Virus record (IMG/VR): IMGVR_UViG_3300023235_000015
Span: 1-64,000 of that record
Strand: one strand, 5' to 3'
Length of the DNA stretch: 64,000 nucleotides
Source: a virus
In this document: in pieces, positions 20,010 to 28,840 of the stretch
Layout: each line of letters opens with the position of its first letter
Numbering within the stretch: the stretch's first letter is position 1
Notes under the pieces: generated by a model
Database searches by the model: none
The model's input: only the letters and a program-made list of their open reading frames with translations
What the model was told of the DNA's origin: nothing
Program-made: the position numbers and the translations under genes

Positions 20010-21410
20010 TTGATTGAGATAAAAGTCACAAACTTCATTGAGGTTAGGGGGCTACCTGATAAATGGGTAGCTTCTCTTGCTAAGCTGGTGTCAGTAGAAA
20101 ACGAGAAGAAGGCTACAGCGATAAGTGAACATACTTATGGCGCTGAATACCTACCTGATCGTTTGACCTACCTAGAAGATCAGGGTGATTACATTACGCT
20201 ACCTCTAGGCTTTGAGAAAGAGCTTACAACGCGCCTGACTGAGACTAAGACACCTTACAAAAGACTTAGATGTACTAATTTTGTATCGTCAAAATCTTAT
20301 ACAGATCATGATACTATTGCCCTTAGAGATAGACAGCCAGAAGCTAAACAAGCTATGCTAGACAATAAGCATGGACTTATTATGGCTTCTCCCGGCTTTG
20401 GCAAAACTACAGTTGGCCTTCACGCTATTTTAGAAATAGGTCAAAGAACAATAATCTTAGTTGACAAAACTGAGCTAGCTAAACAGTGGATAGTTCGCGC
20501 CAAAGAACAATTTGGTATTGATATAGGTCTTATTGGAGATAACCAATGGAACGAGCAAGACATTACAGTAGCTACGCTTCAAACTCTAAGGTCTAGAGAA
20601 GAACAGCTAAACAATGAAAACTTTTGGGATAGATGGGGAGTTGTTGTATATGATGAATCGCATCATGCTGGTAGCTCAGATAGCTACTTTAATATTGTCA
20701 GTAAGTTTAAAGCTGATCGTAGGTACGGCCTTTCAGCTACTAAAGGAAAGAGCCAACAGAAATCAAAGGTGGCCGAACTAGTATTTGGCCCTGTTTTATT
20801 TGAAGATAAAACAAATCAACTTATTCCTACTGTACACAGAGTAAAAACTAATTTTCAATTTGAATATCGTGGTACAGATATTATCAATGGAAAGCGCGTA
20901 CAGAATAATTACCAAGCTATGATAAAAGAACTTATCGCTGACATAGATAGAAATAAATTAATTGCGTCTAAGATAAATAACGAACCTAACTGCGCTCATC
21001 TAGTTATATCAAGGCGGCTACAGCACCTAGAGGACGTTCAAAGCGCCGTAATAGAGGCTGGCTTCGATCCTAAGCGGTGTTTTATGCTTACAGGCAAGGA
21101 ATCCTCAGACCGACGCTTAGAGGTCGGGAGAATGGCTGACAGCGGCTCTATCGCTATATTTTCAACCGTAGCTGACGAGGGATTGGATATCCCGCGCCTA
21201 GACAGAATACACTTACCATTTCCATCTAAGAATCATGAGACAACTAGACAACAAGTAGGTAGAGGTTTAAGAAACCATCCTGATAAAGATGAAACTATTA
21301 TCTATGATTATGTTGATTTAGAAGTATCTGTAATGCGCAATCAATGGAGAAACCGTTTGAATAGATATTACCGTCCAAACAAATTTCCCATTGAATCTTA
21401 CGAATTTTAG
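20010..21410 (+). CDS. superfamily 2 DNA helicase (UvsW/ResIII-like)
   Basis: SPGFGKT, DESHH, GLSAT, EGLDIP and QQVGRGLR motifs. Confidence 0.9.
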   Translation: MIEIKVTNFIEVRGLPDKWVASLAKLVSVENEKKATAISEHTYGAEYLPDRLTYLEDQGDYITLPLGFEKELTTRLTETKTPYKRLRCTNFVSSKSYTDHDTIALRDRQPEAKQAMLDNKHGLIMASPGFGKTTVGLHAILEIGQRTIILVDKTELAKQWIVRAKEQFGIDIGLIGDNQWNEQDITVATLQTLRSREEQLNNENFWDRWGVVVYDESHHAGSSDSYFNIVSKFKADRRYGLSATKGKSQQKSKVAELVFGPVLFEDKTNQLIPTVHRVKTNFQFEYRGTDIINGKRVQNNYQAMIKELIADIDRNKLIASKINNEPNCAHLVISRRLQHLEDVQSAVIEAGFDPKRCFMLTGKESSDRRLEVGRMADSGSIAIFSTVADEGLDIPRLDRIHLPFPSKNHETTRQQVGRGLRNHPDKDETIIYDYVDLEVSVMRNQWRNRLNRYYRPNKFPIESYEF

Positions 21411-21779
21411 TATATCATATAGGCAGGATTCTGTTTTTCAGTCAATCATCTGTCTCAGTGTTGCTCTCGCTTTTCAGCGCACTTAGCTCCCTCAATAGGA
21501 AGTGCATACTGGCCGCATCTTTACATGGTGGCTGCTCTCTACCTTCATTCCTCAAAGTTTTCGGCATCTTAGTTTTCACGCCACTATGATTAGTCCTTAC
21601 AGGAAATATTTTGAGATTGCATACCCTGCTTAACGTCTTTTCTACTTATTGGTAAATAGCGGGTTTCCCCTCCCAAAGCGGATAAGTCATTTTATATTAG
21701 GTTAGCCCTAACAGGGTTGTCCTGACCTTCCTCGACAATGAATTTGAGCCATATGCCGCGACTGACCAGATATACTAAA
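21406..21779 (-). ncRNA. rnpB: RNase P RNA (bacterial-type ribozyme)
   Basis: CR I GAGGAAGGUCAGGAC (21733-21719) and CR V ACAGAAUCCUGCCUA (21434-21420) form P4 with the bulged U. P1 is 11 bp (UUUAGUAUAUC/GAUAUACUAAA). P2 is GUCAGUC/GAUUGAC. CR IV AGACAGAUG. P15 UCUC/GAGA with L15 GGUA. Confidence 0.9.
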
Positions 21780-21858: not shown

Positions 21859-22248
21859 TTAAAGCCTTCCGTCTAGGTATTTATTTTTATACCAGTCGTT
21901 TTCTTCTATGTGAAATATGTGGTGACAATTCCTGCATAAGACTTCGCATTTATTTATTTCATCTAAAATGCGTTGTTGAGCTATTTGTTTATGCGGCGCG
22001 TCAAATAAGCCGAATGATTTTTCGCCTCTTATATGGTGAAAGTCCAAACACCGAATATCTTTTTGACCACACTCACCACAAGGGTTGGTTGATAAATATT
22101 CGCACAGAAAAATTTGAATTTCTCTAGTTCGTTTAGCTTTTTGAATCTTAACTCTAGCTTTTTGTTTCTTTTTGTTCTTCTGATACCAGTCTCTTTGGTA
22201 CTGGCGATTTCGTTTTCGTTGCTCTAAATTATTAGGATCGTATGACAT
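21859..22248 (-). CDS. HNH endonuclease
   Basis: CGECG...LDFHH...KCEVLCRNCH..FH. Confidence 0.9.
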   Translation of the reverse strand: MSYDPNNLEQRKRNRQYQRDWYQKNKKKQKARVKIQKAKRTREIQIFLCEYLSTNPCGECGQKDIRCLDFHHIRGEKSFGLFDAPHKQIAQQRILDEINKCEVLCRNCHHIFHIEENDWYKNKYLDGRL

Positions 22249-22281: not shown

Positions 22282-22357
22282 TAGGGAAGGCGGGGATTGA
22301 ACCCGCGTGAACCAATTACCCTTTCAACTGCATATAAGACAGAGGGGATACTTCCCA
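22282..22357 (-). tRNA. non-canonical tRNA-Ile(UAU)-like RNA lacking a D-arm
   Basis: Acceptor GGGAAG/CUUCCC, arm CUGU-CUUAUAU-GCAG extended by CCCU/AGGG, T-arm GCGGG-UUCAAUC-CCCGC. Confidence 0.6.
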
Positions 22358-22396
22358 ACGATTAAAGACTCTGTTATAGAGTCTTTGGTAATACAA

Positions 22397-22468
22397 TAGG
22401 ATATAAAGGTTATGCTCCTTTTTCTCTGCCTTATCAGAGCAGCGTCTTAACTAGTGGACAAATATCCA
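22397..22468 (-). tRNA. tRNA-Ile(GAU)
   Basis: Cloverleaf, anticodon loop CUGAUAA, atypical T-loop AGCAUAA, U1.U72. Confidence 0.8.
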
Positions 22469-22481
22469 ATGTGTAAATAAG

Positions 22482-22554
22482 TGGAGCTAATAGGATTCGA
22501 ACCTACATAAAATACGTTGCAAACGTATCGCCTTGCCAATCGAGCCATAACCCC
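22482..22554 (-). tRNA. tRNA-Ala(UGC)
   Basis: Cloverleaf, G3.U70, loop UUUGCAA. Confidence 0.92.
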
Positions 22555-22570
22555 TTGATAAATTTTTAAG

Positions 22571-22643
22571 TGGTCAATCAGGGATTCGAACCCCGGACCT
22601 TCCGCATGTAAAACGGCTGCGCTACCAACTGCGCCAATCGACC
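22571..22643 (-). tRNA. tRNA-Val(UAC)
   Basis: Cloverleaf, loop UUUACAU. Confidence 0.92.
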
Positions 22644-22679
22644 TTAAATTTTACTTCTTGACTTTCTTTTTCTTAACGT

Positions 22680-22740
22680 ATTCGAACCTATGCTTTCTTG
22701 GTATGTAACACCAAAGCTCTACCTACTGAGCTAATCGGGT
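22680..22740 (-). pseudogene. truncated tRNA-Val(UAC)
   Basis: Intact D- and anticodon arms and GGUUCGAAU, but the 3' T-stem strand and 3' acceptor strand are absent. Confidence 0.7.
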
Positions 22741-22753
22741 ATGTAATTTTTAA

Positions 22754-22826
22754 AGCGCCTATTTGGATTCGAACCAAAATCTTCGACCTTCGTAGAGTCG
22801 TGTGTTATCCATTACACTATAGACGC
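22754..22826 (-). tRNA. tRNA-Arg(ACG)
   Basis: Cloverleaf, loop CUACGAA. Confidence 0.92.
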
Positions 22827-22871
22827 ATATGTAGGTTACTTTGAAGTAGAGCGTATACCTACAATACTCTA

Positions 22872-22944
22872 CACCCCTACTAGGATTCGAACCTAGACCT
22901 AACGACTTAGAAGATCGTTGCATTATCCATTGTGCTATAGAGGT
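22872..22944 (-). tRNA. tRNA-Arg(UCU)
   Basis: Cloverleaf, loop CUUCUAA. Confidence 0.92.
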
Positions 22945-23016
22945 ATATTGCTAGTCACAAAAAGTAGCTATTTTTTTACTAGCTCTTACATGAGAGGATA
23001 AGTCAATGTAAGTAAG

Positions 23017-23087
23017 CAGGAAATAAAGGGATCGAACCTTTGTTTGCAGGTTTGGAATCTGCCGTGATGCCATTACACTAATCTCCT
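23017..23087 (-). tRNA. tRNA-Trp(CCA)
   Basis: Cloverleaf, loop UUCCAAA. Confidence 0.9.
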
Positions 23088-23102
23088 ATATTTAATTTTT
23101 AG

Positions 23103-23174
23103 CTGATCCAGAAGGATTCGAACCTTCATTTTTCTGCTTAACAGGCATACGCATTTCCATTATGCTACAGATCA
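23103..23174 (-). tRNA. tRNA-Asn(GUU)
   Basis: Cloverleaf, loop CUGUUAA. Confidence 0.88.
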
Positions 23175-23187
23175 ATGTTTACTACAG

Positions 23188-23269
23188 TATCGCATATAGG
23201 ATTCGAACCTATTCACCCGAAGGAACAGTTTTACAGACTGCCATGACTCTCCAACTTCATCGCTACGAT
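23188..23269 (-). tRNA. tRNA-Tyr(GUA)
   Basis: Cloverleaf with variable arm CC-UUCG-GG, loop CUGUAAA. Confidence 0.9.
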
Positions 23270-23282
23270 ATGTTTTACTTCA

Positions 23283-23354
23283 TGATTCCTGATGGATTCG
23301 CACCACCGACGCGCAACGCTTCAAGATGCCGCTCTACTCCTGAGCTAAGGAACC
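23283..23354 (-). tRNA. tRNA-Phe(GAA)
   Basis: Cloverleaf, loop UUGAAGC, T-loop UGCGAAU. Confidence 0.85.
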
Positions 23355-23367
23355 GTATTTAATTAAG

Positions 23368-23440
23368 GGCGAACAGAGGAATTCGAATCCTCATTTTCTT
23401 GGATCACAACCAAGGGCATTAACCGTTATGCTATGTTCGC
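23368..23440 (-). tRNA. tRNA-His(GUG)
   Basis: Cloverleaf, loop UUGUGAU, C73, genomic -1 base is U rather than G. Confidence 0.9.
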
Positions 23441-23442
23441 AG

Positions 23443-23518
23443 TACGCTCGGAAGGAATCGAACCTTCAAAATCTCTTGTGTCTAAGACAAGCGGCTTTGC
23501 CAGTTTGCCCACAAGCGC
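23443..23518 (-). tRNA. tRNA-Leu(UAG), short variable arm
   Basis: Cloverleaf, loop CUUAGAC. Confidence 0.9.
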
Positions 23519-23535
23519 ATGTTATTTTTACTTCA

Positions 23536-23606
23536 ATCACCGGCTAGGATTCGAACCCAGATAAGATGCCCCAAAAACATCTGTCTTACCGTTAGACGAC
23601 CAGTGA
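23536..23606 (-). tRNA. tRNA-Gln(UUG)
   Basis: Cloverleaf, loop UUUUGGG. Confidence 0.88.
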
Positions 23607-23609
23607 ACA

Positions 23610-23681
23610 TTGCTTAGAATGGATTCGAACCACTATCCCTAGATTCAGAGTCTAGTCACTTACCAATTAGTGTACCAAGCA
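23610..23681 (-). tRNA. tRNA-Gln(CUG)
   Basis: Cloverleaf, loop CUCUGAA. Confidence 0.9.
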
Positions 23682-23695
23682 TTATTTTTACTACA

Positions 23696-23767
23696 AGCCT
23701 AAATACGGAATCGAACCGTAATTATCTGATTACAAAACAGAGGTAATAGCCGTTATACTATTCAGGC
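23696..23767 (-). tRNA. tRNA-Thr(UGU)
   Basis: Cloverleaf, loop UUUGUAA. Confidence 0.9.
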
Positions 23768-23798
23768 GTATGTTGTTCATACATTATACCATACTTCA

Positions 23799-23882
23799 AG
23801 GAAGGGCAGAGATTCGAACTCTGAGGGCTGTTACGCCTAGCTGTTTTCAAAACAGTGTCCTTAACCAATTCGGATACCTTCC
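23799..23882 (-). tRNA. tRNA-Ser(UGA)
   Basis: Cloverleaf with long variable arm, loop UUUGAAA. Confidence 0.9.
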
Positions 23883-23897
23883 ATATTTAATTTTAAG

Positions 23898-23981
23898 CGG
23901 AATACTCAGGGTTCGAACCTGAAGGGCTTTTATGCCTTGTCTCTTTAGCAAAGAGAGTCCTGTCCAATTCGGTTGTATTCC
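23898..23981 (-). tRNA. tRNA-Ser(GCU)
   Basis: Cloverleaf with long variable arm, loop UUGCUAA. Confidence 0.9.
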
Positions 23982-24038
23982 AGATGCCATACCAGTGTAG
24001 CAGATTGTATGCTAGACGGTATGGAGTTTAGTACTTCA

Positions 24039-24111
24039 TGGCGGGTATCGGTGCCGCCCCGATTCCTAGAGCTTATGAGACTCCCGACTTATCTACCTTG
24101 TCCTACCCGCT
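24039..24111 (-). tRNA. tRNA-Met(CAU), possibly initiator-like
   Basis: Loop CUCAUAA, A1.C72 mismatch, atypical T-loop GGCGGCA. Confidence 0.8.
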
Positions 24112-24122
24112 TTGTATGTTAC

Positions 24123-24152
24123 ATTATATCAAATGATAAGGAGTAGCGTCAA
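24123..24152 (-). promoter_or_regulatory. sigma70-type promoter inside the tRNA array
   Basis: TTGACG-N18-TATAAT with TG extension. Confidence 0.7.
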
Positions 24153-24346
24153 CCTTTAATCTAAGTTCTTAATATTAGAGTAGCTTACACCAGACTTCTA
24201 CTGGTTCCTACATAAGTTATAAAAGTTATAAAGAAATATAAAAGGTATCGGGCGGGAGGTACATATTGCGCCATATGCTTCCTCACATTATTCTCAGTAG
24301 AGATTTTTATATTAACCTGCTAGCGGTAGGTCGTCCGATGTTATAG

Positions 24347-24429
24347 TACCCTTACTAGGATTCGAACCTAGACGCATATTTCAGCAGTTGGGCTTAAACC
24401 AACCGTGTCTACCATTTCACCATAAGGGC
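24347..24429 (-). tRNA. tRNA-Leu(UAA)
   Basis: Cloverleaf with variable arm, loop UUUAAGC. Confidence 0.9.
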
Positions 24430-24439
24430 TTATGTAAAA

Positions 24440-24513
24440 TGCTGCTACTAGGATTCGAACCTAGACTTTACCGCGTTTGAAACGGCTTCCTCTACCAATT
24501 GGGATATAACAGC
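24440..24513 (-). tRNA. tRNA-Leu(CAA), short variable arm
   Basis: Cloverleaf, loop UUCAAAC. Confidence 0.88.
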
Positions 24514-24522
24514 TTATGTAAA

Positions 24523-24555
24523 TCAGACTAACAGGATTTGAACCTATATAATCTT
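24523..24555 (-). pseudogene. tRNA(Pro-like) 3' fragment/minihelix
   Basis: AGAUUA-U-AUAGG-UUCAAAU-CCUGU-UAGUCUG-A. Confidence 0.55.
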
Positions 24556-24557
24556 AA

Positions 24558-24628
24558 TCGGAATACGTGGAGTCGAACCACGGCTTCTAAGTTCCAAACC
24601 TAGGGTGCTACCGTAACACCTTATTCCG
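24558..24628 (-). tRNA. tRNA-Pro(UGG)
   Basis: Cloverleaf, C1-G72, loop UUUGGAA. Confidence 0.9.
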
Positions 24629-25010
24629 TTATGAAACGTGAGCTTGTTCTAATTGCGTGACAATTGGCACAAACTAATTCACATTTACTAATTTCTTTTG
24701 ATATCTTTTCTATACCGAAACCTCTTGCGACCATGTTACCAACATTGAATTCTTTATCATTTTCAATATGATCCCAATGCATTACTATAGGTGGGTATGT
24801 ATTGTCGCAATCTGTACAAGGGCCGGACTTTATTTTGTTCGACCATTCTCTTAAGTCTTTACGCCTTGATTTATTTTGTGAAGCCCTTTTGCCTTTATCA
24901 GACTCGTAGCGTTCCTTATCATAAACTTTAACGCAAATCCTACACCAAGATTGTCCCTTATTAAATTCTGATTCTGTTTTAGTCTTAGTACATCTAGAGC
25001 AGTTCTTCAT
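24621..25010 (-). CDS. HNH endonuclease with N-terminal zinc finger
   Basis: CSRC..CRIC and CTDC...MHWDH...KCELVCANCH. The stop codon lies inside tRNA-Pro. Confidence 0.9.
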   Translation of the reverse strand: MKNCSRCTKTKTESEFNKGQSWCRICVKVYDKERYESDKGKRASQNKSRRKDLREWSNKIKSGPCTDCDNTYPPIVMHWDHIENDKEFNVGNMVARGFGIEKISKEISKCELVCANCHAIRTSSRFITE

Positions 25011-25016
25011 AAATGA

Positions 25017-25044
25017 AATATACCATATTTGGAAACTTTGTCAA
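25017..25044 (-). promoter_or_regulatory. sigma70-type promoter (leaderless HNH mRNA)
   Basis: TTGACA-N16-TATATT with TG extension, 6 nt before the ATG at 25010. Confidence 0.6.
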
Positions 25045-25058
25045 ATGTTCCAAATAAA

Positions 25059-25130
25059 TTGCCGGTATGGGTAACGATCCCATTTCTGAAAGTTAAGAGC
25101 TTCCTGCATCACCATTAATGCTTACCAGCT
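25059..25130 (-). tRNA. tRNA-Lys(CUU)
   Basis: Cloverleaf, loop CUCUUAA, T-loop AUCGUUA, A1.A72. Confidence 0.82.
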
Positions 25131-25138
25131 ATGTAAAG

Positions 25139-25210
25139 CGGTTCATGAGGGTTACGATCCCTCTTATTCTGATCGACAATCAGATGTAATAACCAGTATA
25201 CGAATGAACC
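25139..25210 (-). tRNA. tRNA-Asp(GUC)
   Basis: Cloverleaf, loop UUGUCGA, T-loop AUCGUAA. Confidence 0.88.
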
Positions 25211-25213
25211 AAA

Positions 25214-25288
25214 TGGTACGGAATAAGAGAATTGAACTCTTGTTTCAAGGATGAAAACCTCGCGTATTCTCCACTATACTAATCCCGC
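25214..25288 (-). tRNA. tRNA-Glu(UUC)
   Basis: Cloverleaf, loop UUUUCAU, encoded CCA. Confidence 0.9.
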
Positions 25289-25301
25289 GTAAATTTTAAA
25301 A

Positions 25302-25374
25302 AGCATCATTAGAGATTCGAACTCTATTCTCTTGGGTGGAAGCCAAGTATGTCAACCATTTCTACTTATGATGC
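25302..25374 (-). tRNA. tRNA-Gly(UCC)
   Basis: Cloverleaf, loop CUUCCAC, U73. Confidence 0.88.
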
Positions 25375-25377
25375 ATA

Positions 25378-25449
25378 TTGCCCCTGAGTGACTTGCACAC
25401 TCGCCCCAAGGCTTAAAAGGCCCGGATCTACTTGTTGAATTAAGGAGCT
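25378..25449 (-). tRNA. tRNA-Lys(UUU)
   Basis: Loop CUUUUAA, T-arm GAGUG-UGCAAGU-CACUC, weak D-stem, A1.A72. Confidence 0.75.
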
Positions 25450-25461
25450 TCGTTTACTAAG

Positions 25462-25539
25462 TGGAGAAGAAGGGTATCGAACCCTTGTCTTAGAGAGCGC
25501 ACTTCGGCAGTAACTCTAATCGAATCCTATCGCTTCCCC
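25462..25539 (-). ncRNA. ssrA: mini-tmRNA: tRNA-like domain only, no mRNA-like domain
   Basis: GGGGAAG/CUUCUCC-A acceptor with G3.U70, stemless D-loop CGAUAGGAUUCGA, P2 UUAGAG/CUCUAA closed by 18 nt, GAC linker, T-arm AAGGG-UUCGAUA-CCCUU. Confidence 0.75.
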
Positions 25540-25570
25540 GTGTTTTCCTACAGTTGATACCTGTTCGTAC

Positions 25571-25579
25571 ATTATAGCA
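25571..25579 (-). promoter_or_regulatory. extended -10 promoter upstream of the mini-tmRNA
   Basis: TGCTATAAT. Confidence 0.55.
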
Positions 25580-25602
25580 CAGATGCCCCGCGCCGTGTAG
25601 AG

Positions 25603-25674
25603 AGATTGAGAAAGGATTCGAACCTTCATAAGACAGGGTTGCAGCCTGCCGCGTCACCATTCCGCCACTCAATC
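25603..25674 (-). tRNA. tRNA-Cys(GCA)
   Basis: Cloverleaf, loop CUGCAAC, U73. Confidence 0.92.
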
Positions 25675-25685
25675 GTGTTCTAGGT

Positions 25686-25714
25686 ACTATACAGGGTCGC
25701 GCGGAGAATGTCAA
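25686..25714 (-). promoter_or_regulatory. sigma70-type promoter heading the tRNA array
   Basis: TTGACA-N17-TATAGT. Confidence 0.75.
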
Positions 25715-26019
25715 GCTCTGCGATTAAAGACCCAAGGGCGCTCTCCTTCAATAATTTCATCAGCATGAAAATCGTCGTGACAATATTTACACATTAAAAC
25801 GCATTTATTAACTTCGGACCAAAATCTTTTATGGCTACATTTAGCTAAGTAAGTAACTGTATTTAGTTTAGTTTCAGGGTTTATATGATGAAACTCTAAA
25901 CTTACGTGTGGAGTAATACACTCTGGAATGTAACATTTATTTCCAAGATGTTCTTTAGCATCATTTACTCGCTTATTATATCTACGTTTTTGTGATGCTT
26001 TTTTTGCTTCGCTTTGCAT
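25711..26019 (-). CDS. HNH endonuclease
   Basis: LGNKC...C...LEFHHINP...KCVLMCKYCH..FH. Confidence 0.88.
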   Translation of the reverse strand: MQSEAKKASQKRRYNKRVNDAKEHLGNKCYIPECITPHVSLEFHHINPETKLNTVTYLAKCSHKRFWSEVNKCVLMCKYCHDDFHADEIIEGERPWVFNRRA

Positions 26020-26200
26020 AGAACCTTTTGTATTTATATAAACTCATGTGATAGGCCGGGAGGGAAGGTTTGATATCTCAGCCGTTTCCCTTTATTCCCG
26101 CGCTCCTATCACCTGACCAGTATAGCACAGTCGGTCCTGACGCGCTAGAGGGGCAGCCGGGGTACGATGTGGCGCATAAAGTATGTAACGCCTAAGTCAA

Positions 26201-28840
26201 TTAAGCGCCGCATACTCCCCCGGCGCACGTTTCTAGGTCTGACTCAAATACCACGCCTTCCTTGCCAATTGCTTCTTCATAAGTAACAGAAGTTAAAGGT
26301 TGACCGCCACGCGCTCCATCAGGATAGCAAGTAACGCCTCTTAGTTTAGGCAGATAACGGTAAAGCATTTCTTTAAAGTCCTCTACTTCTTCTTCTTCTG
26401 TAATTGGGTAAGGCAGATTAATTGTTGAACTAATAGCATGATCAACATATTGCTGAACAAATGCTTGAAATTCAATTCTTTTTTCTACGTTATAAGCTAG
26501 TTCGTGGGCGCTTTCAATGCTAGATGGATGTACTCCATCTTCATCAATAAGACGTTTAGCTGTAGGGTCTACAATATATTCATGTACCCAATTCTTTCCG
26601 TCTTTAAGATAACGGCGCTTCATAGCTACGCAGTAAATTGGCTCAATTCCTGTAGTTGTTTCAGCAATAATTCCGATTGTCCCTGTGGGCGCAATAGCTC
26701 TAACTTTTACAGGCTTTGACAGGCCAAGTTTTTTAGAATATTTTTCTGATGCTGCATTTGAAGCTGACTCATAAATCTCTAGCCACTCTCTTAGCTCGTC
26801 ATTTGGAGCATATTTATATTGACGCTTTAGAAGCCACTCATGGATTCCCATTAGGCCAAGTCCTAAACGACGATTTTTAGTTCTTATATTTTTTACTTTT
26901 TCATAAGGCACATGTGAGTAAACGGTTCCTGATAATAGAAACAGAACTGCTTTATCTATAACCTCTGCAAACTCTTCTTTTGTGTCAATGTTTGCTAAGT
27001 TAATTGAACCTAGATTACAAATGTCTGAATCGTCAGCACTTGTAACTTCGCAACAGTTAGAAATAATTACACCTTCCGCCATAAAGGAATGTTCTTCTAC
27101 CTTTACATCAGCGCAATAAACATCTTCAATCCCGTCCTCTACAACTTCTAGAACTTTAATTGTTGATGCTCGATAAGGTTTGTAGCTATCTAGGTTAATA
27201 TTTAGTCTGTGGGTAGGAACCTCATCAGCAAATTTAGCTCTGAAATCTGCCGCGATAACTAGCTGCCAACATTTTGTCTTGCCAAATGTGGAAGTTCCGG
27301 CAGAACTTATATTAGACTGTATACCAATCTGTTCTAAAGCTTTTTGTACGCCATTAAGAAAACTTTTATGTTTTGATGCTAAACGAATAGCTTTATTGAT
27401 TGGTTCCCAATTGCCATCAGCATCAAATAGTCCACCAACAAATGACTTAATTTGTTCAGGTGAGGCCGCATAGATATCTTTGGGAAATTCAGCCTTTCCT
27501 CGACCTGAAAATTTCTCATTAACTGAGAAATATAGTCTAGTGTAACCACGACTATCATTTTCATTTACTGAATTGTATCCGTCTAGCCATTCCAAACAAT
27601 CTTTAGATTCATCTGTACATAAGGTTAGGTCGGCACCACCAGTATTAGTGAAGGAACCATCGCCATAGATGTATCCCATAGTATAATAGTCCTTGCACAA
27701 AGCGTTGCCGCTAGTTGTAGGATATGAAACGTGAAGGATATCTCCACTTTCTAGGTCTTTAGCGGGAATTTTTAAAATCCTTTCAAATTTGCGCCTTGAA
27801 CCGGCACCAGAATATTCTTCAACAAGAAACTCATGATTTGGTTCACAACGAATCTCACGACCGCCAGAAATTAACACGCAAACAACGCTAGCTTCTTTTT
27901 CAGTTAGTGAAAATACAACGTCATTAGCCCATTGTTTACCTGTCCACACAGTTGTAGGATTATCCACGATATCTGATACTGGTTGATATCCTTGCCGTGT
28001 TAAAACATTAGTTCCGGCTGTTACCGGAGCATTGCGTAAAGTCTCGCCAGCATTTTCTCCAACGTCAATTGAAAAACCCGGCTCTGCTGTTTTTAGCATC
28101 CTCTTAGTAGTCTGGTGGTAAACTTCTCTGGCATGATTATGTAGTTCGTGATCCTCGTTATCGTGAGCCTCAAAAAACTCATCGTCTAAAAGAACACTAA
28201 TATTTGTCATATCTAATCTTGCCGGAAAGTTAAAGTCTTTCTCTTTTTCTGCGCGTACTATATCGCTCCAATTCTTAGCATCAATAAACTGAAAGATATC
28301 ACCGTGTTTCCAGTTTAGACCAGCCCAAATAGCTGACCGTCTAGAGCCGCCTTGCATAATATGACGGCCACACTCATTAACCATTTCCATAATAGAAATA
28401 GGTCCAGAGGCAACACCGCCAGTTTTAGTAATAACTGAGCCAGATTGTCTAACATCTGAGTAGTCAATTCCAATTCCTGCTCCTGTCATTAGAGCCATTG
28501 AAGCGTTAGCTAGTAGCTCACTCCAACCCTCTCTAGAATCTTCACAGCGCATCAGGAGGCAGTTTTGTGTCTGGTGAAAGTCGCGCCCCGAAGCGTATAG
28601 ATAACGACCGCCTGCTAAAAATTGTTGTGCTGCTAAGTATTGTTCTAGTATATCAGCAGATTCAGTTTCTTCCATGCTGATAGCCTCTAGATTAGCTTGA
28701 ATTACTCGCTTGGCAGTATCAGGCCAATCTTCTACAATATTTCCATCTTTATCTTTAAATGCGTATTTTTGTTCGTAAATTCCTCTTGCGAAAGGGGAAA
28801 AGTCTTGGCCCTGTTTAGCGGGTCGTACTGCTGTCGGCAT
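26201..28840 (-). CDS. nrdJ: ribonucleotide reductase, class II (NrdJ-like), intein-containing
   Basis: GGRYL, NCLL, GSRRSA, LRNA|CCE (NxCxE), CNLGSINL, APTGT, ISSTINLP and C-terminal CAGGVC. No small-subunit gene in the window. Confidence 0.85.
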   Translation of the reverse strand: MPTAVRPAKQGQDFSPFARGIYEQKYAFKDKDGNIVEDWPDTAKRVIQANLEAISMEETESADILEQYLAAQQFLAGGRYLYASGRDFHQTQNCLLMRCEDSREGWSELLANASMALMTGAGIGIDYSDVRQSGSVITKTGGVASGPISIMEMVNECGRHIMQGGSRRSAIWAGLNWKHGDIFQFIDAKNWSDIVRAEKEKDFNFPARLDMTNISVLLDDEFFEAHDNEDHELHNHAREVYHQTTKRMLKTAEPGFSIDVGENAGETLRNAPVTAGTNVLTRQGYQPVSDIVDNPTTVWTGKQWANDVVFSLTEKEASVVCVLISGGREIRCEPNHEFLVEEYSGAGSRRKFERILKIPAKDLESGDILHVSYPTTSGNALCKDYYTMGYIYGDGSFTNTGGADLTLCTDESKDCLEWLDGYNSVNENDSRGYTRLYFSVNEKFSGRGKAEFPKDIYAASPEQIKSFVGGLFDADGNWEPINKAIRLASKHKSFLNGVQKALEQIGIQSNISSAGTSTFGKTKCWQLVIAADFRAKFADEVPTHRLNINLDSYKPYRASTIKVLEVVEDGIEDVYCADVKVEEHSFMAEGVIISNCCEVTSADDSDICNLGSINLANIDTKEEFAEVIDKAVLFLLSGTVYSHVPYEKVKNIRTKNRRLGLGLMGIHEWLLKRQYKYAPNDELREWLEIYESASNAASEKYSKKLGLSKPVKVRAIAPTGTIGIIAETTTGIEPIYCVAMKRRYLKDGKNWVHEYIVDPTAKRLIDEDGVHPSSIESAHELAYNVEKRIEFQAFVQQYVDHAISSTINLPYPITEEEEVEDFKEMLYRYLPKLRGVTCYPDGARGGQPLTSVTYEEAIGKEGVVFESDLETCAGGVCGA
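27056..28027 (-). mobile_element. intein (324 aa, LAGLIDADG) in RNR, Pro1/class-3-like
   Basis: Starts PVTAGTNVLTRQG and ends GVIISN|C. Block F VYCADV. MGYIYGDG and GGLFDADG motifs. Confidence 0.88.

What the first reader, a model, noticed from the sequence alone, without database searches (positions are those of the whole stretch)
25462..25539. Tagless mini-tmRNA: tRNA-like domain with no mRNA-like domain
Seen: a 78-nt RNA, GGGGAAG CGAUAGGAUUCGA UUAGAG UUACUGCCGAAGUGCGCU CUCUAA GAC AAGGG UUCGAUA CCCUU CUUCUCC A. It has the tmRNA hallmarks: alanine identity G3.U70 and A73, a stemless D-loop ending GGAUUCGA, and a GAC linker before the T-arm. P2 is capped after only 18 nt, leaving no pseudoknots, resume codon or tag ORF. 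It has its own extended -10 (25571-25579). Known: SmpB binds this domain, and tmRNAs lacking the MLD are known from some protist mitochondria. Inference: a phage TLD-only RNA could be an SmpB decoy that blocks host trans-translation and tagging of phage proteins. Alternatively it could rescue stalled ribosomes by adding Ala without a degradation tag.
Basis: partly seen in the sequence, partly recalled or inferred. Interest (0 to 1): 0.85.

Follow-up and report, generated by a model that had tools for sequence, protein, structure and literature searches.

The report
Phage tag-less mini-tmRNA gene
A 78-base gene in this salt-lake phage's tRNA array copies only the alanine-accepting, tRNA-like end of the bacterial ribosome-rescue RNA (tmRNA). 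It is a new member of a class first seen in mycobacteriophage DS6A, and it probably competes with the host's rescue-and-tag system.

Summary
Window 25462-25539 (-) encodes a complete tmRNA tRNA-like domain (TLD) with no mRNA-like domain. It has a 7-bp acceptor stem with G3:U70 and A73, a GGAUUCGA D-loop, tandem G.A pairs, a 6-bp P2a helix closed by 18 nt, and a T-arm. Rfam tmRNA aligns end to end with 308 of 374 model positions deleted, scoring 36-45 bits (cut-off 47). A covariance model built from 23 other mini-TLDs, without this one, hits it at 72.6 bits. The kind is already published: mycobacteriophage DS6A carries a "TLD only" tmRNA, reported to inhibit E. coli tmRNA. My scans found 138 loci (87 unique sequences, 59-87 nt). 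G3:U70 is invariant and the helices covary. Twenty-four IMG/VR contigs carry one, and phage BRock has an unannotated one. Only four true hits lie in 185,579 prokaryotic species genomes; an AT-rich subset is plastid. No carrier phage record encodes SmpB. The most likely function is to use host AlaRS, SmpB and EF-Tu and compete with host tmRNA. Tag-free or poly-Ala rescue is the main rival. Expression and function are untested. This scan has reported the same class before on other DNA. It is a new member of a known kind.

The parts
25462..25539 (-). Mini-tmRNA gene (TLD only), 78 nt to the discriminator; no encoded CCA
   Evidence: Sequence read. Rfam tmRNA end-to-end hit. Leave-one-out model R2 scores 72.6 bits.
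25533..25539 (-). Acceptor stem, 5' strand (GGGGAAG), G3 of the G3:U70 pair
   Evidence: pair 3 is G.U in 87 of 87 unique class members.
25520..25532 (-). Stemless D-loop CGAUA-GGAUUCGA, ending in G19 A20 of the tandem G.A junction
   Evidence: Aligned to the conserved GGaUUCGA of RF00023.
25490..25519 (-). P2a helix (UUAGAG/CUCUAA, 6 bp) closed by an 18-nt cap; stands in for the roughly 300-nt mRNA-like domain
   Evidence: All six P2a pairs covary across the class.
25463..25489 (-). GAC linker, T-arm (AAGGG-UUCGAUA-CCCUU) and acceptor 3' strand (CUUCUCC)
25571..25579 (-). Extended -10 element TGCTATAAT, 31 nt upstream of the mature 5' end
   Evidence: Read directly; not listed by the hexamer-pair scanner.
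25686..25714 (-). Sigma-70-like promoter TTGACA-17-TATAGT upstream of tRNA-Cys; possible co-transcription
   Evidence: 11 of 12 matches.
25602..25674 (-). tRNA-Cys(GCA), upstream neighbour
25378..25449 (-). Weak tRNA-Lys(UUU)-like gene, downstream neighbour after a 12-nt spacer
   Evidence: Rfam tRNA 27.5 bits, cut-off 29; not called by ARAGORN.
22396..25674 (-). Co-oriented tRNA array that holds the mini-tmRNA (22 ARAGORN tRNAs plus tRNA-Gly 25302-25374)
   Evidence: Only tRNA-Glu encodes CCA. The mini-tmRNA shares the ...AGTAA trailer seen after tRNA-Tyr, Phe, Gln and Thr.

Best explanation
This is a phage gene for a TLD-only (CDS-less) tmRNA, of the same kind as the one in mycobacteriophage DS6A. 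It is transcribed within the tRNA array and matured like a tRNA: RNase P cuts the 5' end, the 3' end is trimmed, and CCA is added, possibly by the phage's own CCA-adding enzyme. The RNA is then charged with alanine by host AlaRS through G3:U70 and A73, bound by host SmpB at the D-loop/P2a elbow, and delivered by EF-Tu to ribosomes stalled on broken mRNAs. It has no resume codon or tag frame, so it cannot add the ssrA degradation tag. It therefore competes with host tmRNA for SmpB and for stalled ribosomes, and lowers tagging and proteolysis of nascent (phage) proteins.

Shown here: the anatomy, membership of a covarying class that is largely phage-borne, and the absence of phage SmpB.

Taken from the literature on other RNAs: TLD fragments bind SmpB and enter the ribosome, and the DS6A form inhibits E. 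coli tmRNA.

Inferred: expression, processing, charging, SmpB binding and the net effect for this RNA.
For: - Anatomy: every conserved TLD element is present and the middle is deleted.
- Membership: model R2, built without this sequence, scores 72.6 bits end to end. Sister model R1 recovers the published DS6A RNA at 28478-28557 (56.7 bits) and an unannotated copy in the tRNA array of Streptomyces phage BRock (58.3 bits).
- Selection on structure: in 24 aligned members 98.6% of cells pair. There are 106 double-change cells against 30.4 in shuffles (0 of 500 shuffles reach it), and all six P2a pairs covary.
- Independent validation of the scans: acceptor 3' strand, U70 and A73 were not in the search pattern. 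They are present in 116 of 122 loci, all metagenome except L004, L005 and the window's own copy, and 24 of 24 IMG/VR contigs.
- Phage context: carrier contigs hold terminase, portal, tail fibre and replication genes. Only 4 true hits lie in 185,579 prokaryotic species genomes, all on MAG contigs, and one of those contigs has a phage portal gene.
- Dependence on the host: no SmpB in this phage or in 16 other carrier records.
- Not a remnant of a full gene: 2 carrier phages hold both a full 376-nt tmRNA and a mini form.
- Maturation: the phage encodes a CCA-adding-type enzyme, and its tRNA genes and this gene lack CCA.
- Literature: DS6A 'TLD only' and the inhibition of tmRNA (PMC4131195, PMC11915505). 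TLD fragments bind SmpB, enter the A site with EF-Tu, and support template-free polyalanine synthesis (PMC3929946).
Against: - There is no RNA evidence for this gene.
- No close relatives were found, so conservation at this locus could not be shown.
- The Rfam score is below the gathering cut-off, and the thermodynamic fold is not distinctive.
- The 18-nt cap lacks the GAAA...CCGC-loop-GCGG-AAC hairpin shared by DS6A, BRock and several metagenome members.
- According to PMC4131195, inhibition in E. coli did not need a chargeable RNA. Yet G3:U70 is invariant in nature, which points to something beyond passive titration of SmpB.
- Why a phage gains from blocking trans-translation is not established.
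Confidence: 0.55

Rival explanations
1. Productive, tag-free rescue. The charged mini-TLD with host SmpB accepts the stalled peptide. It adds one alanine, or several in repeated rounds. The ribosome is then freed by drop-off with Pth, or by ArfA/ArfB. Stalled ribosomes are recycled for the phage without marking proteins with the full ssrA degron. On this reading the RNA is a minimal rescue device, not an inhibitor.
For: G3:U70 is invariant in 87 of 87 unique members and A73 in 85 of 87, while acceptor pairs 5-7 change freely. This indicates selection for charging, which a pure SmpB sponge would not need (PMC4131195). A TLD fragment with SmpB supports template-free polyalanine synthesis in vitro (Shimizu and Ueda 2006, as cited in PMC3929946). 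The gene sits in a complete translation-support array with tRNAs, an RNase P-like RNA and a CCA enzyme. CDS-less tmRNAs persist in mitochondria and plastids together with SmpB (PMC11915505).
Against: No carrier phage record encodes a hydrolase partner: there is no RF-1/ArfB domain in 17 records and no Pth in this one. The only in vivo result on record for such an RNA is inhibition of tmRNA (PMC11915505). Two phages carry a full tmRNA as well, so plain rescue would be redundant in them.
Confidence: 0.28
2. Decoy or trigger for something other than trans-translation. Examples are host defence proteins that carry SmpB-like RNA-binding domains (CoCoNuT types II and III-A), or nucleases that attack tRNA or tmRNA.
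For: SmpB-like domains predicted to bind tmRNA occur in defence systems (PMC11090510). Phage tRNA arrays are often read as counters to tRNA-directed defences (PMC5764925).
Against: This is purely speculative. No such defence gene or partner was examined here. The full set of AlaRS, EF-Tu and SmpB determinants is conserved, which fits the ribosome pathway better.
Confidence: 0.07
3. A decaying remnant: a full-length phage tmRNA that recently lost its middle and is no longer functional, or an assembly collapse.
For: Phages with full-length tmRNA exist (PMC9004378). This copy scores lower than most members on RF00023 (44.8 bits against 59-76).
Against: All 18 modelled pairs are intact. The same architecture recurs in 87 distinct sequences with compensatory changes. 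Two public assemblies, possibly this DNA's own source runs, give the identical sequence across 24900-26100. The gene has tRNA-like spacing and the same trailer as its neighbours.
Confidence: 0.05
4. An aberrant tRNA-Ala, or an attP fragment of the host ssrA gene.
For: It has the alanine identity elements. Many islands and prophages integrate into the 3' end of ssrA (PMC11915505).
Against: There is no anticodon arm, and ARAGORN calls no tRNA here. A normal tRNA-Ala(UGC) lies at 22481-22554. attP fragments carry only the 3' part of ssrA, whereas the 5' acceptor strand and D-loop are present here.
Confidence: 0.02

Closest known systems
TLD-only ('standard, no CDS') tmRNA of Mycobacterium phage DS6A (JN698994, 28478-28557; Mao et al. 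2009; PMC4131195; PMC11915505)
   Same: Both are phage-borne, contiguous (not permuted) TLDs of about 80 nt, with P2 closed by a short hairpin and no tag frame. One covariance model (R1) finds both end to end. Neither phage encodes SmpB.
   Different: DS6A's D-loop is diverged (GGUGGUCGAC) and its cap is the GAAAACCGCACGCGGUAC hairpin. It stands alone between protein genes. The window's copy keeps the canonical GGAUUCGA, has a different 18-nt cap, and sits inside a tRNA array with a promoter of its own. Only the DS6A form has been tested in cells.
Standard one-piece bacterial tmRNA (SsrA, Rfam RF00023)
   Same: Acceptor stem with G3:U70 and A73, stemless D-loop GGAUUCGA, tandem G.A junction, P2a, GAC linker and T-arm.
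   Different: 308 of 374 model positions are missing. There are no pseudoknots, no resume codon and no tag reading frame. The score is below Rfam's cut-off.
CDS-less organellar tmRNAs (jakobid and oomycete mitochondria, Rfam RF02544; ~65-nt Mallomonadaceae plastid forms; PMC11915505, PMC3590771)
   Same: They also lack the mRNA-like domain and keep a chargeable TLD that works with SmpB.
   Different: They sit in organelle genomes and the mitochondrial forms are usually permuted. In my scan the AT-rich 59-63-nt forms lie beside atpB and rpoB/rpoC1 on contigs of 26-30% G+C, i.e. plastid DNA. They form a separate sequence group from the window's RNA.
Engineered TLD fragments used in structural and in vitro work (for example T. 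thermophilus 5' 25 nt + UUCG + 3' 34 nt, PDB 2CZJ; PMC3929946)
   Same: Nearly the same design: acceptor, D-loop, short P2a closed by a loop, and T-arm. These fragments bind SmpB, enter the A site with EF-Tu and support polyalanine synthesis.
   Different: They are man-made. The natural RNA has a longer cap with an internal loop.

Membership tests
tmRNA (Rfam RF00023, standard form) | tRNA-like domain: 7-bp acceptor stem with G3:U70, A73, stemless D-loop GGAUUCGA, T-arm GGUUCGAnnCC | tested here: met
tmRNA (Rfam RF00023, standard form) | Score at or above the curated gathering cut-off (47 bits) | tested here: not met
   36.3 bits and 44.8 bits.
tmRNA (Rfam RF00023, standard form) | mRNA-like domain: resume codon, tag reading frame and stop codon | tested here: not met
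   Only 18 nt lie between the P2a strands. An Ala-Leu-stop triplet run (nt 42-50) overlaps the P2a helix. Only 24 of 87 class members have any in-frame GCN...stop, so no frame is conserved.
tmRNA (Rfam RF00023, standard form) | Pseudoknots PK1-PK4 | tested here: not met
   308 model positions are deleted.
tmRNA (Rfam RF00023, standard form) | Alanylation by AlaRS; binding of SmpB and EF-Tu | not testable with these tools
   Only the sequence determinants can be read: G3:U70, A73, the G.A junction and the T-arm.
TLD-only / CDS-less tmRNA (DS6A type) | Contiguous complete TLD with P2 closed by a short hairpin and no tag frame | tested here: met
TLD-only / CDS-less tmRNA (DS6A type) | Matches a structure-plus-sequence model of other members that was built without it | tested here: met
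   R2 scores 72.6 bits, E 9e-14, model positions 1-80 of 80. R1 finds DS6A at 56.7 bits and BRock at 58.3 bits.
TLD-only / CDS-less tmRNA (DS6A type) | Carried by a phage that lacks its own SmpB | tested here: met
   The source is an IMG/VR virus record of 102,342 bp with tail, helicase, RNR and HNH genes. It has no PF01668 match.
TLD-only / CDS-less tmRNA (DS6A type) | Inhibits host tmRNA when expressed | not testable with these tools
   Reported only for the DS6A form (PMC11915505, citing Mao 2009). The primary paper is not held.
Mitochondrial tmRNA (Rfam RF02544) | Organelle genome context, usually a permuted gene | tested here: not met
   The context is a phage and the gene is not permuted. 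The RF02544 score itself was hidden by clan competition.
Canonical tRNA-Ala | D-stem and an anticodon arm with a 7-nt loop | tested here: not met
   ARAGORN makes no call here. Nt 19-52 form the G.A junction, P2a and the cap.

The most novel reading that the evidence does not exclude
The phage mini-TLD is not a passive decoy. It is a charged, working minimal trans-translation RNA. With host SmpB it adds alanine, or a template-free poly-alanine tail, to stalled nascent chains and so frees ribosomes. This makes it a two-component, mRNA-free rescue or tailing system that phages have streamlined and spread widely. The invariant G3:U70 in 87 of 87 divergent members, and its coexistence with a full tmRNA in some phages, are what one would expect if charging and a separate role are under selection.
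Probability: 0.28. Interest if true: 0.7.

Novelty: new member of a known kind. Interest (0 to 1): 0.4.

Why it matters
Trans-translation is the main ribosome-rescue and quality-control pathway of bacteria and is a drug target. A natural, tiny RNA that phages use to engage or block it would be a ready-made inhibitor or probe. It would also show how small a functional tmRNA can be. The 2025 tmRNA database lists only 9 "standard, no CDS" sequences among 97,179 (PMC11915505). A simple motif scan here returned 87 distinct ones, mostly on phage-like contigs, and ARAGORN misses nearly all of them: it marked 2 of 117 validated loci scanned, not the window's. Phage genome annotation therefore under-reports this class. 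An unannotated copy in the cultured Streptomyces phage BRock makes it testable by genetics. For this window the result is confirmatory rather than new.

Tried and rejected
- Megablast of 25000-26000 against INPHARED phages found no match.
- An exact-pattern scan for this RNA's own P2 sequence in IMG/VR found none.
- Relatives sought through the flanking RNR share only about 50% amino-acid identity and have no tRNA array beside the gene. The flanking helicase gave no relatives. Conservation at this locus could therefore not be tested.
- Tunturiibacter phage Tunturi_3, the best RNR hit, has no mini-TLD.
- Sequencing runs: no RNA holder is listed. The DNA holders are salt-lake metagenomes that may be the source of this DNA.
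- Laying contigs showed only identical sequence in two runs, and unrelated tRNA-like fragments in others.
- Mao et al. 2009 is not held, so it is cited through PMC4131195 and PMC11915505.
- SmpB, RF-1/ArfB and Pth are absent from the phage. SmpB and RF-1 are also absent from 16 other carrier records.
- A recurring "cytidyltransferase" PHROG neighbour of marine mini-TLDs was not borne out by Pfam.
- A possible 2-codon tag (GCU CUC UAA, nt 42-50) was rejected: it lies in the P2a helix and the class has no conserved frame.
- Six metagenome pattern hits (L020, L055, L079, L091, L100, L112) and two haloarchaeal genome hits (L133, L137) lack the acceptor stem and were discarded.
- The first MAFFT alignment (A1) misaligned the 5' ends because D-loop lengths differ. 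It was replaced by a same-length subset, A2.

Full report
**1. The observation**

The window is the first 64 kb of a 102,342-bp IMG/VR virus record that CheckV rates as complete. Public runs that hold this DNA are salt-lake metagenomes.

The finding lies on the minus strand inside a co-oriented tRNA array. ARAGORN tRNAs between 22396 and 25674. Rfam adds tRNA-Gly(UCC) at 25302-25374 and a weak tRNA-Lys(UUU) at about 25378-25449.

- acceptor GGGGAAG/CUUCUCC with G3:U70, and discriminator A;
- D region CGAUA-GGAUUCGA with no stem;
- G.A/A.G junction;
- P2a UUAGAG/CUCUAA, closed by an 18-nt cap;
- GAC linker;
- T-arm AAGGG-UUCGAUA-CCCUU.

There is no encoded CCA.

Rfam's tmRNA model aligns from its first to its last position and deletes 308 of 374 positions. 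It scores 36.3 bits or 44.8 bits, just under the cut-off of 47. ARAGORN misses the gene. The free-energy fold alone is unremarkable (z = -1.77).

TGCTATAAT, an extended -10, lies at 25579-25571. A strong TTGACA-17-TATAGT promoter lies at 25714-25686, before tRNA-Cys.

**2. It belongs to a real, selected RNA class**

I scanned public collections for the conserved TLD words joined by a short gap: GGGG, 6-10 nt, GGATTCGA, 12-42 nt, GAC NNN GGTTCRA NN CC.
- IMG/VR gave 24 contigs.
- One genome for each of 185,579 prokaryotic species gave only 6 hits. Four are real, and all four lie on MAG contigs.

The pattern says nothing about the 3' acceptor strand. Even so, in 116 of 122 loci (all from the metagenome scan except L004, L005 and the window's own copy) and in 24 of 24 viral contigs the next bases complete a 7-bp acceptor stem with U opposite G3.

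Pooled, there are 138 loci and 87 unique sequences of 59-87 nt:
- Pair 3:70 is G.U in 87 of 87.
- The discriminator is A in 85 of 87.
- Acceptor pairs 5-7 change with compensation.

In a 24-sequence alignment:
- 98.6% of cells pair.
- Double-change cells number 106 against 30.4 in shuffles (0 of 500 shuffles reach it).
- Sliding the partners drops pairing to 41-58%.
- All six P2a pairs covary.

A model built from the other 23 sequences finds the window's RNA end to end at 72.6 bits with no non-standard pair. Its nearest class member is only 73% identical, so it is a lineage of its own.

**3. Who carries it**

Contigs with the RNA encode terminase (L101, L093), a tail fibre (L064), a portal (L136, filed under a Myxococcales MAG), PhoH, replication initiator and helicase.

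Some copies sit in dense tRNA arrays like this one (L005, L169, L161, L057), but most do not: 15 of 53 longer metagenome loci and 4 of 24 viral contigs have a tRNA within 1.5 kb.

An AT-rich subset of 59-63 nt (14 loci, 26-32% G+C) lies beside atpB and rpoB/rpoC1. This is plastid DNA, matching the plastid CDS-less tmRNAs reported in 2025 (PMC11915505).

Model R1 recovers the published DS6A RNA at JN698994 28478-28557. It also finds an unannotated 78-nt copy in Streptomyces phage BRock (KX925554 97143-97220), in the gap between tRNA-Cys and tRNA-Val of its tRNA array. BRock's RNR is among the best matches to this phage's RNR. DS6A and BRock have diverged D-loops that my pattern would miss, so the counts above are lower bounds.

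**4. What is already known**

- Hudson, Lau and Williams 2014 list "Mycobacterium phage DS6A (TLD only)". They note that a similar molecule, chargeable or not, strongly inhibits tmRNA, perhaps by titrating SmpB (PMC4131195).
- The 2025 tmRNA database paper counts 9 "standard, no CDS" sequences among 97,179. It states that the DS6A form inhibits endogenous tmRNA in E. coli (PMC11915505).
- TLD fragments of the same design bind SmpB in crystals. They enter the A site with EF-Tu, and with SmpB they support template-free polyalanine synthesis (PMC3929946).

The kind is therefore known, and so is the decoy hypothesis. Its breadth in phages is not described in the papers I could search. Earlier reports of this same scan had already reached that conclusion on other genomes.

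**5. How it most likely works**

No SmpB, RF-1/ArfB or Pth gene is in this phage. No SmpB or RF-1 domain is in 16 other carrier records, six of which, counting this phage, are complete genomes. The RNA must therefore work with host factors.

The phage does encode a CCA-adding-type enzyme with PolyA_pol head, RNA-binding, HD and tRNA_NucTran2_2 domains. Its tRNA genes, like this gene, lack CCA and share an ...AGTAA trailer. An RNase P class A-like RNA closes the array. Maturation as a tRNA-like RNA is therefore plausible.

My preferred reading (0.55) is that the RNA is charged, bound by host SmpB and taken to stalled ribosomes. There it competes with host tmRNA and lowers ssrA tagging.

The main rival (0.28) is productive tag-free or poly-Ala rescue. 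The invariant G3:U70 favours a role for charging, which passive SmpB titration would not require.

Two carrier phages (IMG/VR contigs of 98.8 and 211 kb) hold both a full 376-nt tmRNA and a mini form. The mini form is therefore not just a broken tmRNA and probably does something different.

**6. Limits**

There is no RNA evidence and no close relatives, and function was not tested. The window's 18-nt cap differs from the hairpin motif shared by DS6A, BRock and several others. It does keep the two nearly invariant cap positions, A29 and C33.

**7. Verdict**

This is a new member of a known, under-annotated class, of moderate interest.

Noticed in passing
window 21404-21777 (-): Rfam bacterial RNase P class A aligns end to end (model 1-367) at 37.3 bits, far below the cut-off of 100, E 7e-10 in a 1.1-kb scan. 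This could be a divergent phage RNase P RNA at the end of the tRNA array. It would process the 5' leader of the mini-tmRNA.
   Followed up: partly
window 26201-28840 (-): The ribonucleotide reductase large subunit is 879 aa. Phage homologues align in two pieces that cover about 63% of it, and the PHROG hits are split. This suggests an inserted element such as an intein in the middle.
   Followed up: no
window 22282-22357 (-): A weak tRNA-like element: Rfam tRNA 24.6 bits (cut-off 29), and 14.4 bits with the mini-TLD model. ARAGORN does not call it.
   Followed up: no
window 21859-22248, 24621-25010, 25711-26019 (all -): Three HNH endonuclease ORFs are interspersed in or flank the tRNA array.
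   Followed up: partly
G000:C1:88536-89960 (-), outside the window (L147:532-1956): The phage encodes a CCA-adding-type nucleotidyltransferase (PolyA_pol, PolyA_pol_RNAbd, HD, tRNA_NucTran2_2). Only tRNA-Glu of the array encodes CCA.
   Followed up: yes
KX925554 (Streptomyces phage BRock) 97143-97220 (-), L140:1501-1578: An unannotated 78-nt TLD-only tmRNA lies in the tRNA array of a cultured phage. It shares the GAAAGCCGCACGCGGAAC cap hairpin with DS6A.
   Followed up: partly
IMG/VR contigs behind L148 (98.8 kb) and L167 (211 kb): Each carries both a full-length 376-nt tmRNA (128 bits) and a 73-nt match spanning the 70-nt mini-TLD (56.5 bits), at separate places.
   Followed up: partly
L018, L061, L115 and 11 other AT-rich metagenome loci: TLD-only tmRNAs of 59-74 nt (most 59-63 nt) lie next to atpB and rpoB/rpoC1 on DNA of 26-32% G+C. 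These are plastid CDS-less tmRNAs, apparently more widespread than the two Mallomonadaceae cases in PMC11915505.
   Followed up: partly
window 23187-25539 (-), 3' trailers: tRNA-Tyr, Phe, Gln and Thr and the mini-tmRNA are all followed by a (t)gt/ga/tt-AGTAA trailer. This may be a shared 3'-processing signal.
   Followed up: no
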